A stretch of DNA of 64,000 bases from a virus. The notes under the pieces are model-generated. The model ran no database searches and had not been told where the DNA came from. It was given only the letters and a program-made list of their open reading frames with translations. Each line of letters starts with the position of its first letter. Position 1 is the first letter of the stretch. The stretch lies in the IMG/VR virus record IMGVR_UViG_3300037067_026753; one strand, given 5' to 3'. Position numbers and translations under genes: made by a program. This document shows, piece by piece, positions 45,689 to 46,094 of the stretch.

Positions 45689-45764
45689 TACTTTGTAGCT
45701 CAGCTGGTAGAGCGATTGCCTATTAAGCGATAAGTCTCAGGTTCGAATCCTGAAAAAGTAGCCA
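45689..45764 (+). tRNA. 76-nt cloverleaf with encoded CCA and discriminator G73, anticodon loop CTATTAA (anticodon ATT, not a standard isoacceptor). Unit 1 core
   Basis: manual fold: canonical D (GCTC/GAGC) and T (TCAGG TTCGAAT CCTGA) arms. Confidence 0.55.
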
Positions 45765-45851
45765 AAAACTAGCATTTACAACTCGAGCATTTGTTCATTT
45801 CAAATTGAAAATAAATTTTTAAAACTGCTCTTTAACATCGGGTGCTTACAT

Positions 45852-45942
45852 GGATATAACTTTAGTTCACCAAACCGAAGTTTGACGTTCGATTCGTCAT
45901 TCCCCCGCTAAGAAAATATGTGTTTTCTTGGTGGGGGAAAGT
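45852..45942 (+). ncRNA. tRNA-like minihelix RNA: T-arm (TGACG TTCGATT CGTCA) followed by a 17-bp closed acceptor-like hairpin (TTCCCCCGCTAAGAAAA/TTTTCTTGGTGGGGGAA). No D or anticodon arm. Unit 2 core
   Basis: manual fold; occupies the tRNA slot between the conserved flanking motifs. Confidence 0.45.
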
Positions 45943-46018
45943 AAAAAATAGCATACGTAACTCGAGCAGTTTTAATTTTGAAAAATAAACAAGTGTTCTT
46001 TAACTCTAAGTGCTTACA

Positions 46019-46094
46019 TGCTTTTAAGCTCAATTGGTAGAGCAATTGTTATTGGAACAATTCGTTCTTGGTTCAAATCCAGGAAAAGCGACCA
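46019..46094 (+). tRNA. 76-nt cloverleaf with encoded CCA, anticodon loop TATTGGA (anticodon TTG but A at position 33). Unit 3 core
   Basis: manual fold: 6-bp anticodon stem AATTGT/ACAATT, T-loop TTCAAAT. Confidence 0.5.

What the first reader, a model, noticed from the sequence alone, without database searches (positions are those of the whole stretch)
45689..46094. Two otherwise perfect 76-nt tRNAs (CCA encoded) with non-canonical anticodon loops
Unit 1 has anticodon loop CUAUUAA: anticodon AUU, discriminator G73, U35U36. It carries Asn-like identity elements but A at the wobble position, and matches no standard isoacceptor. Unit 3 has anticodon loop UAUUGGA: anticodon UUG but A instead of the near-universal U33. 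Both have canonical D and T arms (GGTTCGAATCC / GGTTCAAATCC). They are therefore unlikely to be ordinary decoding tRNAs. They may be decoys for anticodon nucleases, Rsr-bound tRNA mimics, or recoding tRNAs.
Basis: seen in the sequence. Interest (0 to 1): 0.72.

Follow-up and report, generated by a model that had tools for sequence, protein, structure and literature searches.

The report
tRNA-shaped Y-like RNAs beside phage Ro60
The two odd tRNAs are real, but they are two of four tandem RNAs built on one shared stem scaffold directly upstream of a very divergent Ro60-like gene in a huge phage, so they are most likely tRNA-shaped modules of Y-RNA-like partner RNAs and not tRNAs used in translation.

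Summary
ARAGORN and Rfam both-nt, CCA-ending tRNAs at 45689-45764 (loop CUAUUAA, anticodon AUU) and 46019-46094 (loop UAUUGGA, A33). No alternative register rescues either loop.

The two tRNAs are units 1 and 3 of a four-unit array (45656-46293) that lies between a promoter-like site and a terminator. Every unit has a unit-specific 10-12 bp basal stem, a conserved internal loop (UUUAAC / AACUC), a second helix, and UACAU. The insert in each unit is a tRNA or a rearranged tRNA. Unit 4 is a circularly permuted tRNA-Ser(GCU).

The gene downstream (46676-48226) has no Pfam TROVE hit. Its predicted structure nevertheless matches only Ro60/Rsr full-length (Foldseek E about 1e-9 to 1e-11).

The same RNA array next to a Ro-like gene recurs in about 60 metagenomic huge-phage loci. 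There the stems and the cloverleaf covary strongly. The anticodon loop changes between close orthologs at the rate of the spacers between units, and 6- or 8-nt loops and A34 are common.

Best reading: these are Ro60-partner Y-like RNAs with tRNA-mimic modules, a new variant of the YrlA theme. Binding to the Ro-like protein is inferred, not shown.

The parts
45619..45648 (+). Promoter-like site upstream of the array (TTGTTA, 18 nt, TATATT)
   Evidence: Consensus scan only. The surrounding sequence is conserved in L001 and L080. This is weak evidence.
45656..45796 (+). Unit 1. Basal stem 45656-45667 pairs with 45785-45796 (12 bp). Internal loop UUUAAC (45668-45673) faces AACUC. Helix 2 is AAGUGCU / AGCAUUU, followed by UACAU. 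The insert is a complete tRNA.
   Evidence: Sequence, fold, stem scan.
45689..45764 (+). tRNA-like module 1: full cloverleaf, loop CUAUUAA (anticodon AUU), G73, encoded CCA followed by AAAA
   Evidence: ARAGORN; Rfam tRNA 57.4 bits.
45821..45973 (+). Unit 2: same scaffold. The insert is a hairpin, then a T arm (GACG-UUCGAUU-CGUC), then a long acceptor-like stem closed by a loop. It has no D arm and no free end.
   Evidence: Sequence. Fold -52.8 kcal/mol, z = -6.6. The ortholog in L001 has the same architecture.
45987..46126 (+). Unit 3: same scaffold. Basal stem 45989-45998 pairs with 46115-46124. The insert is a complete tRNA.
   Evidence: Sequence, fold, stem scan.
46019..46094 (+). tRNA-like module 3: full cloverleaf, loop UAUUGGA (A33, anticodon UUG), A8, U1.G72, encoded CCA followed by AAAAA
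   Evidence: ARAGORN; Rfam tRNA 48.8 bits.
46145..46293 (+). Unit 4: same scaffold. The insert is a circularly permuted tRNA-Ser(GCU)-like module: T arm, acceptor stem closed by a short loop, D arm, anticodon arm CUGCUAA. The scaffold emerges where the long variable arm would be.
   Evidence: Sequence. Partial Rfam tRNA hit at 46224-46258. Re-joining the halves in silico gives an ARAGORN tRNA-Ser(gct).
46315..46346 (+). Intrinsic-terminator-like hairpin plus T run that ends the RNA array
   Evidence: 12 pairs, 6 of them G-C. Conserved in L001 and L080.
46423..46674 (+). Small conserved protein (83 aa), probably ubiquitin-like. Family members end ...NGNITVRPxxxFG plus 0-3 residues.
   Evidence: Translation. 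About 45 homologs sit immediately beside the Ro-like gene or the array. The ubiquitin-like fold is inferred, not tested.
46676..48226 (+). Divergent Ro60/Rsr-like protein (516 aa): helical ring plus a C-terminal vWA domain with a DxSGS MIDAS motif
   Evidence: AF2 pLDDT 83.9. The top 13 Foldseek PDB hits are all Ro60/Rsr/TROVE, full length, E 3e-11 to 4e-8. The only PDB sequence-profile hit is TROVE at E = 0.055. No Pfam or NCBIfam hit.
48219..49064 (+). Conserved 281-aa partner protein of unknown function, built of OB-fold-like barrels
49030..49443 (+). JAB/MPN-type peptidase (context; same gene string)
   Evidence: Pfam Prok-JAB E = 6e-4, below its cutoff; PADLOC JAB models. Also present downstream in L003.
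49805..50437 (+). ThiF/E1-like adenylyltransferase (context; same gene string)
   Evidence: Pfam ThiF E = 3e-24. In L099 a ThiF gene directly follows an array of the same RNA.

Best explanation
The two 'tRNAs' are the distal modules of two members of a four-gene array of Y-RNA-like noncoding RNAs. The array is encoded by a huge phage directly upstream of its own, very divergent, Ro60 (TROVE + vWA) homolog.

Proposed mechanism:
1. The array (45656-46293) is transcribed as one unit and yields four RNAs of about 140-150 nt. In each, the 5' and 3' ends pair (basal stem, conserved internal loop UUUAAC/AACUC, helix 2 with an invariant G-C/C-G step, then UACA). [Inferred]
2. This constant scaffold is the binding site for the Ro60-like ring. 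[Inferred from linkage]
3. The variable distal end is a tRNA-shaped module. In units 1 and 3 the scaffold joins at the acceptor end. In unit 2 it joins at the D-arm position. In unit 4 it joins at the variable-arm position. By analogy with YrlA, the module recruits or gates a protein that recognises tRNA shape (elbow and acceptor/T minihelix). Candidates are RNase P, the CCA-adding enzyme, modification or RNA-repair enzymes, or the conserved OB-fold partner encoded next door. [Inferred]
4. Because the module works through its shape and not by decoding, the anticodon loop is unconstrained. That explains A34 in unit 1 and A33 in unit 3.

Shown here: the array, the scaffold and its covariation; the cloverleaf covariation; the Ro60-like predicted fold; the genomic linkage across many loci; and the loop evolving at about the spacer rate. 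Inferred: transcription and processing, Ro binding, and the identity of the recruited protein.
For: - Array and shared scaffold: seen directly in the sequence. Each unit folds with a closing stem. A promoter-like site and a terminator bracket the array.
- Specificity: a motif-plus-stem scan finds exactly these four units in the whole 64-kb window on both strands.
- Protein: all 13 top PDB structural matches are Ro60/Rsr/TROVE over the full length, including phage phiLo Ro60. TROVE is also the only PDB sequence-profile hit.
- Linkage: in loci fetched through the protein, units lie 0.4-3.2 kb from the Ro-like gene, on either strand. An RNA-first search of IMG/VR gave 9 hits, 8 of them real. Six have the Ro-like gene within about 3 kb.
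- Scaffold covariation: 104 of 149 unique candidate units have at least 11 of 12 basal-stem pairs, against 18 of 745 mismatched-partner controls. There are 94 distinct strand sequences.
- Helix 2 plus cloverleaf on 50 units: 95.7% of cells paired against 62.5% shuffled; covariation score 0.81 against 0.20 shuffled and 0.10-0.18 for slid partners; 0 of 500 shuffles reach the observed values.
- Loops as a class: 36 of 71 embedded tRNAs have a fully canonical loop, against 27 of 31 free-standing ones (p = 4e-4). Ten have 6- or 8-nt loops and 15 have A34 in an anticodon other than ACG, against none of either kind in the free-standing set.
- Orthologs change anticodon while keeping the body.
- Differences per site between close pairs: loop 0.25, spacer 0.26, tRNA body 0.08, scaffold 0.10.
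- The scaffold survives when the insert is lost (L080 unit 4) or is a plain 22-30-nt hairpin (L020, L009).
- RNA-repair genes are nearby, as at bacterial rsr loci: RtcB at 59786-62179, an RNA ligase at 39367-40374, and a Pnkp-like kinase.
- Precedent: YrlA RNAs next to Ro60 in bacteria and phages mimic tRNA (PMC4201824; bioRxiv 10.1101/312249). Phage phiLo Ro60 binds RNAs encoded upstream of its gene (PMC12135203).
Against: - No binding, expression or processing data exist; Ro binding rests on linkage and analogy.
- The motif reported for Rsr-binding Y RNAs (GNCGAAN0-1G / CGAA; PMC4201824, PMC12135203) is absent. The conserved nucleotides here are different.
- No Rfam Y_RNA hit covers any unit.
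- The protein is Ro60-like only by predicted fold, at 11-14% identity and TM 0.5-0.6.
- About half of the embedded tRNAs elsewhere have fully canonical loops, and 59% encode CCA. Some could therefore still be released and used as tRNAs.
- One contig (L100) has a lone scaffolded tRNA with no Ro-like gene within 6 kb.
- The scaffold could instead be bound by the conserved 281-aa OB-fold protein or another neighbour.
Confidence: 0.68

Rival explanations
1. They are genuine phage tRNAs. The flanking leader-trailer helix is only a precursor-processing or stabilising element. After cleavage by RNase P and 3' trimming to the encoded CCA, they are charged and decode AAU (Asn) and CAA/CAG (Gln) in this AT-rich genome.
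For: - High tRNA scores and intact elbow nucleotides in unit 1.
- CCA is encoded in 42 of 71 embedded tRNAs against 8 of 31 controls.
- Half of the embedded tRNAs in relatives have canonical loops.
- M. smegmatis YrlA is cut by RNase P, so excision is plausible (PMC4201824).
Against: - The anticodon differs between orthologs that share the same acceptor, D and T arms: AUU / UAA / UCU for unit 1; UUG / UUC / a 6-nt loop for unit 3. In 20 of 25 close pairs the assigned anticodon or loop length differs.
- The loop changes at the spacer rate.
- Unit 3 has A33 and A8.
- A34 outside Arg-ACG is essentially unused in bacterial decoding (established knowledge).
- The same scaffold carries permuted, end-less tRNAs and plain hairpins.
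- The phage has a separate cluster of 11 ordinary tRNAs, including Asn-GUU.
Confidence: 0.1
2. They are decoys or baits for host anticodon nucleases (PrrC, VapC or colicin-like enzymes, retron or PARIS effectors). The tRNA bodies display loops that are bound but not productively cleaved, or that report cleavage to the neighbouring repair enzymes. Tethering to Ro60 may or may not be involved.
For: - Phage context, with RtcB, an Rnl-type ligase and a Pnkp-like kinase within about 13 kb.
- The loop CUAUUAA recurs in four independent embedded tRNAs and in one permuted unit. It differs from a Lys-UUU loop at position 34 only.
- Phage tRNAs are proposed to carry loop mutations that defeat anticodon nucleases (PMC10264068; PMC11555353).
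Against: - The loop rate equals the spacer rate, so there is no signal of diversifying selection beyond neutrality.
- 6- and 8-nt loops and loss of the whole insert are tolerated.
- No preferred anticodon set appears among 71 modules.
- No nuclease target is known for this uncultured host.
Confidence: 0.12
3. The scaffold is real but is recognised by something other than the Ro-like protein. Candidates are the conserved OB-fold 281-aa neighbour, the Ubl/E1/JAB machinery, or a processing nuclease. The Ro-like gene would then be only a co-operonic passenger.
For: - The 281-aa protein is as tightly linked as the Ro-like gene and has OB-fold-like barrels.
- In L099 the array abuts a ThiF gene with no Ro-like gene in view.
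- Some relatives carry a hairpin + GGAUUGAAAC element between units that resembles a CRISPR-repeat processing site.
Against: - Ro60 is the one protein family known to pair with stem-closed, tRNA-like RNAs encoded next to its gene (PMC4201824; PMC12135203).
- The scaffold sequence variant changes together with the Ro-like clade: GUCCCCAAC...CUUACAAAC / GACUUGGAC in the clade at about 40% identity.
Confidence: 0.08

Closest known systems
YrlA (Y RNA-like A) of Salmonella Typhimurium, Mycobacterium smegmatis and >250 bacteria and phages, partner of Rsr/Ro60 (PMC4201824; structure in bioRxiv 10.1101/312249)
   Same: - It is a noncoding RNA encoded next to a Ro60 gene, often several in tandem from one precursor.
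- The 5' and 3' ends pair into a stem.
- The distal module mimics tRNA, with conserved T and D arms.
- Most members are effectively permuted tRNAs with a loop-closed acceptor stem, as units 2 and 4 are here.
- RtcB and other RNA-repair genes lie in the neighbourhood.
   Different: - In YrlA the Ro-binding stem replaces the anticodon stem, and there is no anticodon loop and no free CCA. Here units 1 and 3 are complete cloverleaves with an anticodon arm and an encoded CCA, joined to the scaffold at the acceptor end. Units 2 and 4 are joined at the D-arm and variable-arm positions.
- The YrlA motif GNCGAAN0-1G is absent. The invariant nucleotides here are G-C...UACA on the 5' side and GC...ACU on the 3' side.
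- The protein has no detectable TROVE sequence signature.
- Arrays reach 6-7 units.
Thermus phage phiLo Ro60 with Yrl1/Yrl2 (PMC12135203; PDB 9KOP, 9L5Y)
   Same: It is a phage-encoded Ro60 with Y-like RNAs directly upstream of its gene. 9L5Y and 9KOP are among the structural matches and are the only sequence-profile hits.
   Different: - Yrl1/2 were identified through the CGAA motif and are stem-bulge-stem RNAs. The passages I read do not describe them as tRNA-like.
- The present protein is far more divergent.
- The present protein is linked to Ubl/E1/JAB genes and an OB-fold partner.
Phage tRNAs with anticodon-loop substitutions proposed to evade host anticodon nucleases (PMC10264068)
   Same: They are phage-encoded tRNA genes whose anticodon loops depart from the host consensus.
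   Different: Those tRNAs keep a usable anticodon and remain decoders. Here the anticodon itself is not conserved between orthologs, loop length varies, and the genes are embedded in a non-tRNA scaffold.
Circularly permuted tRNA genes (red alga Cyanidioschyzon merolae; recalled from established knowledge, not tested here)
   Same: In unit 4 the 3' half (T arm and acceptor 3' strand) lies upstream of the 5' half.
   Different: The algal genes are processed through a circular intermediate into normal tRNAs with free ends. In unit 4 a 3-5-nt loop closes the acceptor end, and the break is buried in the scaffold helix.

Membership tests
Canonical decoding (elongator) tRNA | Cloverleaf with conserved D/T-loop tertiary nucleotides and a significant covariance-model score | tested here: met
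   Rfam tRNA 57.4 and 48.8 bits (GA 29), plus ARAGORN. Unit 3 has A8 instead of U8.
Canonical decoding (elongator) tRNA | 7-nt anticodon loop with U33 and purine 37, and an anticodon used by a standard isoacceptor | tested here: not met
   Unit 1 has A34-U35-U36, and A34 is not used for Asn. Unit 3 has A33. No alternative register was found.
Canonical decoding (elongator) tRNA | Anticodon conserved among orthologs (the loop is the most constrained part of a tRNA) | tested here: not met
   Orthologous units read AUU/UAA/UCU and UUG/UUC/6-nt loop. Loop 0.25 differences per site against body 0.08 and spacer 0.26.
Canonical decoding (elongator) tRNA | Aminoacylation and use on the ribosome | not testable with these tools
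   Needs acid-gel northerns or tRNA-seq from an infected host.
Bacterial/phage Y RNA of the YrlA type | Encoded adjacent to a Ro60/Rsr gene | tested here: met
   The array ends 380 nt upstream of a protein whose predicted fold matches only Ro60/Rsr full-length. The linkage recurs in dozens of loci.
Bacterial/phage Y RNA of the YrlA type | 5' and 3' ends pair into a long stem that closes the RNA | tested here: met
   10-12 bp basal stems in all four units. 104 of 149 units have at least 11 of 12 pairs, against 2.4% of controls.
Bacterial/phage Y RNA of the YrlA type | Conserved Rsr-binding motif GNCGAAN0-1G (CGAA) in the 5' strand (PMC4201824; PMC12135203) | tested here: not met
   The 5' strands read ...CUCUUUAAC-N5-GUGCUUACAU, with no CGAA. 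The invariant columns are GC.UACA / GC / ACU.
Bacterial/phage Y RNA of the YrlA type | tRNA-like module with T and D arms and a loop-closed acceptor, with the Ro-binding stem in place of the anticodon stem | tested here: not met
   Units 1 and 3 have an open acceptor with CCA and a real anticodon arm. Unit 4 has a closed acceptor but its scaffold sits at the variable-arm position. Unit 2 lacks a D arm.
Bacterial/phage Y RNA of the YrlA type | Match to a curated Y RNA model | tested here: not met
   Rfam at E <= 10 gives only tRNA on the units. The single Y_RNA hit (17 bits, E = 2.1) is on the other strand, at 45465-45536.
Bacterial/phage Y RNA of the YrlA type | Physically bound by the Ro60 protein | not testable with these tools
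   Needs EMSA, RIP or a structure.
Ro60 / TROVE protein family (for ORF 46676-48226) | HEAT-repeat ring plus C-terminal vWA domain (Ro60 fold) | tested here: met
   AF2 pLDDT 83.9, pTM 0.76. Foldseek ranks 1-13 are all Ro60/Rsr/TROVE, aligned over 520-580 columns, TM 0.48-0.60.
Ro60 / TROVE protein family (for ORF 46676-48226) | Sequence match to the TROVE domain model | tested here: not met
   No Pfam, NCBIfam or PHROG hit. The profile against PDB finds only TROVE, at E = 0.055.
Ro60 / TROVE protein family (for ORF 46676-48226) | MIDAS motif (DxSxS) in the vWA domain | tested here: met
   D337, S339, G340 and S341 are invariant in 30 homologs. Some homologs carry precomputed VWA Pfam hits.
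Nuclease-evading phage tRNAs (PMC10264068) | The anticodon is retained for decoding while neighbouring loop positions are altered | tested here: not met
   The anticodon itself changes between orthologs, and loop length varies.

The most novel reading that the evidence does not exclude
Huge phages carry a previously unrecognised Ro60-based ribonucleoprotein system. In it a constant Ro-binding scaffold displays whole or rearranged tRNAs (up to seven per array) as interchangeable baits. These baits would couple sensing, sequestration or repair of tRNA damage (host anticodon nucleases; phage RtcB, ligase and kinase) to a co-encoded ubiquitin-like conjugation module (Ubl with C-terminal Gly, E1, JAB) and an OB-fold partner. 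That would be a viral counter-defence organelle built on the Ro60/Y RNA principle. It would also mean that part of the 'tRNA' complement reported for huge phages is not translational.
Probability: 0.2. Interest if true: 0.85.

Novelty: new variant of a known kind. Interest (0 to 1): 0.64.

Why it matters
1. Annotation. tRNA finders call these modules tRNAs with odd anticodons, or 'tRNA-???'. In huge-phage genomes they inflate tRNA counts and could be mistaken for recoding tRNAs.
2. Reach of the Ro60/Y RNA system. The finding adds a large family (more than 500 protein clusters) that sequence models miss. It also adds a new RNA scaffold whose conserved nucleotides differ from the CGAA-type motif.
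3. Insight into tRNA mimicry. One scaffold accepts tRNA modules joined at three different positions: the acceptor end, the D arm and the variable arm. This suggests that the tRNA elbow and the acceptor/T half are what matter. It bears on the still unknown effector of tRNA-like Y RNAs.
4. A testable link. The fixed linkage to a Ubl/E1/JAB set and an OB-fold protein suggests an untested connection between Ro60 RNPs and protein conjugation in viruses.

Tried and rejected
- Alternative base-pairing registers for both anticodon arms: none gives a canonical loop.
- Rfam at gathering threshold and at E <= 10 over the array: only tRNA hits. There was no Y_RNA, tmRNA, GOLLD/ROOL or other family on the units.
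- Near and distant DNA search against GenBank phages: only generic tRNA-Asn and tRNA-Lys body similarity of 60-76 nt, and no related array.
- Pfam, NCBIfam, PADLOC and PHROGs on the 516-aa and 281-aa proteins: nothing usable.
- Sequence profile against PDB for the Ro-like protein: suggestive only (E = 0.055), so I relied on the predicted structure.
- tblastn against GenBank phages: one unannotated 595-kb uncultured phage, LR756511.1.
- RNA-first pattern scan of IMG/VR as an independent linkage test: one of nine hits (L098) was a false positive in an ordinary tRNA cluster, and one (L100) was a lone unit without a Ro-like gene in view.
- Test for diversifying selection on the anticodon loop: the rate equals the spacer rate, so I do not claim an arms-race signal.
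- Paralogy with the phage's own tRNAs: units 1 and 3 resemble each other, but match the 11 ordinary tRNAs of the window at only 47-66%.
- MITE/repeat reading: rejected because every unit has its own basal-stem sequence and the arrays have a fixed genomic partner.
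Full report
**Observation.** ARAGORN reports 13 tRNA genes in the window. Eleven form an ordinary cluster on the minus strand at 35.3-37.8 kb. Two lie on the plus strand, at 45689-45764 (anticodon ATT) and 46019-46094 (anticodon TTG). The Rfam tRNA model scores these two at 57.4 and 48.8 bits against a gathering score of 29.

Unit 1 has loop CUAUUAA, G73 and CCA. Unit 3 has loop UAUUGGA with A33, and CCA. Both have canonical T loops. I found no alternative register that restores a canonical loop. Two details temper 'otherwise perfect': unit 1 has a G7.A66 mismatch, and unit 3 has A8 and a U1.G72 pair.

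**What surrounds them.** The two tRNAs are not free-standing genes. Four tandem units occupy 45656-46293. Each has the following parts, in order:
- a unit-specific basal stem of 10-12 bp formed by its outer flanks;
- a conserved asymmetric internal loop (5' UUUAAC, 3' AACUC);
- a second helix (for example AAGUGCU/AGCAUUU);
- the sequence UACAU;
- an insert;
- an A-rich linker back to the 3' strand.

A promoter-like site (45619-45648) precedes the array and a strong terminator-like hairpin (46315-46346) follows it.

The inserts differ:
- Units 1 and 3 carry the two complete tRNAs.
- Unit 2 carries a hairpin, a T arm and a long loop-closed acceptor-like stem.
- Unit 4 carries a T arm, a loop-closed 7-bp acceptor stem, a class-II D arm and an anticodon arm CUGCUAA.

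When the two halves of unit 4 are re-joined in silico at the variable region, ARAGORN calls a tRNA-Ser(GCU). Unit 4 is therefore a circularly permuted tRNA whose long variable arm has been replaced by the scaffold. A motif-plus-stem scan finds exactly these four units in the whole 64-kb window on both strands.

**The neighbouring gene.** An operon starts 77 nt after the terminator. It encodes:
- an 83-aa protein (46423-46674);
- a 516-aa protein (46676-48226);
- a 281-aa protein (48219-49064);
- a JAB peptidase;
- a ThiF/E1 enzyme;
- a Pnkp-like kinase;
- a PARP.

The 516-aa protein has no Pfam, NCBIfam or PHROG match. It has more than 500 metagenomic homologs, and some of these carry VWA domain hits. 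A profile of 30 homologs finds only 'TROVE domain-containing protein' in the PDB sequences, weakly (E = 0.055) but collinearly.

Its AlphaFold2 model (pLDDT 83.9, pTM 0.76) matches only Ro60/Rsr/TROVE structures at ranks 1-13 in Foldseek. These include human and Xenopus Ro60, Deinococcus Rsr and Thermus phage phiLo Ro60. The alignments span the full length, with E from 3e-11 to 4e-8, TM 0.48-0.60 and 11-14% identity. Isolated vWA domains follow at E of about 1e-5 and weaker. A DxSGS MIDAS motif is invariant. I conclude that this is a highly divergent Ro60 homolog.

**The genome is a phage.** Portal, large terminase and head protease genes are in the window. The homologs sit on IMG/VR contigs of 84-470 kb and on a 595-kb uncultured phage, LR756511.1. 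NCBI nevertheless labels the 424-kb source contig as a 'Candidatus Nanoarchaeia archaeon' MAG.

**Relatives.** I fetched 14 viral and 79 metagenomic loci through the Ro-like protein. The same scaffold appears 0.4-3.2 kb from the Ro-like gene in most loci that have enough upstream sequence. It occurs on either strand, in arrays of 1-7 units.

- Basal stems: without requiring a stem, 149 unique '5' motif then 3' motif' candidates were collected. Of these, 104 have at least 11 of 12 basal-stem pairs, against 18 of 745 when 5' and 3' flanks of different loci are combined. The stems use 94 different sequences.
- Helix 2 and cloverleaf: RNAalifold on 50 units that carry full tRNAs recovers helix 2 plus the cloverleaf, and 23 of 26 pairs show compensatory changes. 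On that structure 95.7% of cells pair, against 62.5% in shuffles. The covariation score is 0.81, against 0.20 in shuffles and 0.10-0.18 for slid partners.
- Invariant positions: only G-C...UACA on the 5' side and GC and ACU on the 3' side are invariant.
- Reverse test: an RNA pattern (T loop ... CCAAAA ... GCAY ... RACTYR) scanned against 2.9 million viral contigs gave nine hits. Eight are real units. Six of these have the Ro-like gene within about 3 kb. One abuts a ThiF gene with no Ro-like gene in the stretch held. One is a lone unit with no Ro-like gene within 6 kb.
- Scaffold versus insert: the scaffold persists when the insert is lost (L080 unit 4) or is a plain 22-30-nt hairpin.
- Co-variation with the protein: the scaffold sequence variant changes with the Ro-like clade.

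**Are the embedded tRNAs decoders?** Orthologous units in close relatives keep the acceptor, D and T arms but not the anticodon.
- Unit 1: CUAUUAA here, CUUAAAA in L001 (Ro-like protein 74% identical), UCUCUAA in L016 (72%).
- Unit 3: UAUUGGA here, UGUUCAA in L080 (85%), and a 6-nt UUGGGU loop without CCA in L001.
- Near-identical loci differ only in the anticodon: AAU against AAC in L058 and L060.

Across 71 unique embedded tRNAs, 10 have 6- or 8-nt loops, 11 of the 61 seven-nt loops lack U33, and 15 have A34 outside ACG. Only 36 of 71 have a fully canonical loop, against 27 of 31 free-standing tRNAs from the same contigs (p = 4e-4). CCA is encoded in 42 of 71 against 8 of 31.

Among close pairs (at least 80% identity), differences per aligned site are:

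| Region | Differences per site |
|---|---|
| Anticodon loop | 0.25 |
| Inter-unit spacers | 0.26 |
| Anticodon stem | 0.14 |
| Scaffold | 0.10 |
| Rest of the tRNA | 0.08 |

(the pairs are not phylogenetically independent). The loop therefore behaves as unconstrained sequence, while the tRNA shape and the scaffold are conserved. This is the opposite of what a decoder would show. It also gives no evidence for faster-than-neutral diversification.

**Interpretation.** The anatomy matches what is known for Ro60 partners. Those are noncoding RNAs encoded beside the Ro60 gene, closed by a 5'/3' stem that binds Ro60, with a distal module that in bacterial YrlA RNAs mimics tRNA (PMC4201824; bioRxiv 10.1101/312249). 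Phage Ro60 proteins with Y-like RNAs encoded upstream are also known (PMC12135203; PMC7824862 notes TROVE proteins in a few jumbo phages).

I therefore read the four units as Y-RNA-like partners of the phage Ro60-like protein, and the two 'tRNAs' as their tRNA-mimic modules. The aberrant anticodon loops are a consequence of lost decoding constraint. The nearby RtcB (59786-62179), RNA ligase (39367-40374) and Pnkp-like kinase echo the rsr-yrlA-rtcBA association in bacteria. Ro binding, transcription and processing, and the recruited effector are all inferred.

**How it differs from the known family.**
- The GNCGAA/CGAA motif is absent, and different nucleotides are conserved.
- No Rfam Y RNA model matches.
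- In YrlA the Ro-binding stem replaces the anticodon stem, and there is no CCA end. Here complete cloverleaves with anticodon arms and encoded CCA hang from the scaffold by their acceptor ends. In the same array other tRNAs are grafted at the D-arm and variable-arm positions.
- The protein escapes TROVE sequence models.
- The locus is fixed to a small protein whose family ends in ...NGNITVRPxxxFG, to an OB-fold-like 281-aa protein, and to JAB and E1 genes.

I therefore do not file these RNAs as YrlA members. I treat them as a new variant of the Ro60/Y RNA kind.

**Rivals.**
- Real tRNAs with a processing helix: disfavoured by anticodon turnover, A33/A8, and the permuted and hairpin inserts.
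- Anticodon-nuclease decoys (PMC10264068; PMC11555353 give the context): compatible with the phage and RNA-repair setting and with the recurrence of CUAUUAA, but without a selection signal.
- A different binding protein for the scaffold: possible, most plausibly the OB-fold neighbour.

**Verdict.** Novelty: a new variant of a known kind. Interest is moderate to high.

Noticed in passing
window 1035-9599 (-): Head protease, portal and large terminase genes show that the window is from a phage. NCBI nevertheless names the 424-kb source contig a 'Candidatus Nanoarchaeia archaeon' MAG, so it is probably a mis-binned huge phage.
   Followed up: partly
window 59786-62179 (+): A 797-aa RtcB-like tRNA-splicing ligase. 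The PHROG match comes in two stretches, and the length suggests an insertion such as an intein. It lies 11.5 kb downstream of the Ro-like gene.
   Followed up: no
window 39367-40374 (+): An Rnl2-type RNA ligase domain is fused to an N-terminal HNH-like segment, 5 kb upstream of the array.
   Followed up: no
window 50437-52318 (+): A Pnkp-like P-loop kinase is followed by a eukaryote-type PARP (WGR, regulatory and catalytic domains), in the same gene string as the Ro-like, JAB and E1 genes.
   Followed up: no
window 36692-36768 (-): The ordinary-cluster tRNA-Asn(GUU) has C33 (loop CCGUUAA). Free-standing tRNAs in L016 (Thr, CCUGUAA) and L013 (Ala, CCUGCAA) also have C33. This may be relevant to the proposal that phage tRNAs carry loop changes that evade nucleases.
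   Followed up: partly
window 46423-46674 (+), and about 45 related loci: The small protein beside the Ro-like gene or the array ends ...NGNITVRPxxxFG, often exactly at the Gly or with 1-3 extra residues. Together with the E1 and JAB genes, this suggests a ubiquitin-like conjugation module. The fold was not modelled.
   Followed up: partly
window 48219-49064 (+): A 281-aa protein always follows the Ro-like gene (47-55% identity in distant loci). Its predicted structure consists of OB-fold-like barrels with no confident homolog. It is a candidate RNA-binding effector.
   Followed up: partly
L004 2840-2951, L007 2670-2878, L018 340-726, and L016, L046, L069, L078: In some related arrays a hairpin followed by GCGYGGAUUGAAAC punctuates or replaces the 5' half of units. 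It resembles the 3' handle of a CRISPR repeat. It is absent from this window.
   Followed up: partly
window 40754-45474 (-): Immediately upstream of the array the phage encodes a response-regulator/HD-GYP-type protein (347 aa) and a 1225-aa TPR-repeat protein. This is unusual cargo for a virus.
   Followed up: no
L100 (IMGVR_UViG_3300022744_000001), about 6246-6290 (-): A lone scaffolded tRNA-Ile(GAU) with a canonical loop sits in a GC-rich 448-kb contig, with no Ro-like gene within 6 kb. It is an exception to the linkage.
   Followed up: partly
L009 2687-3883 (+): In this relative a Band-7/SPFH-domain protein lies between the RNA array and the Ro-like gene.
   Followed up: no
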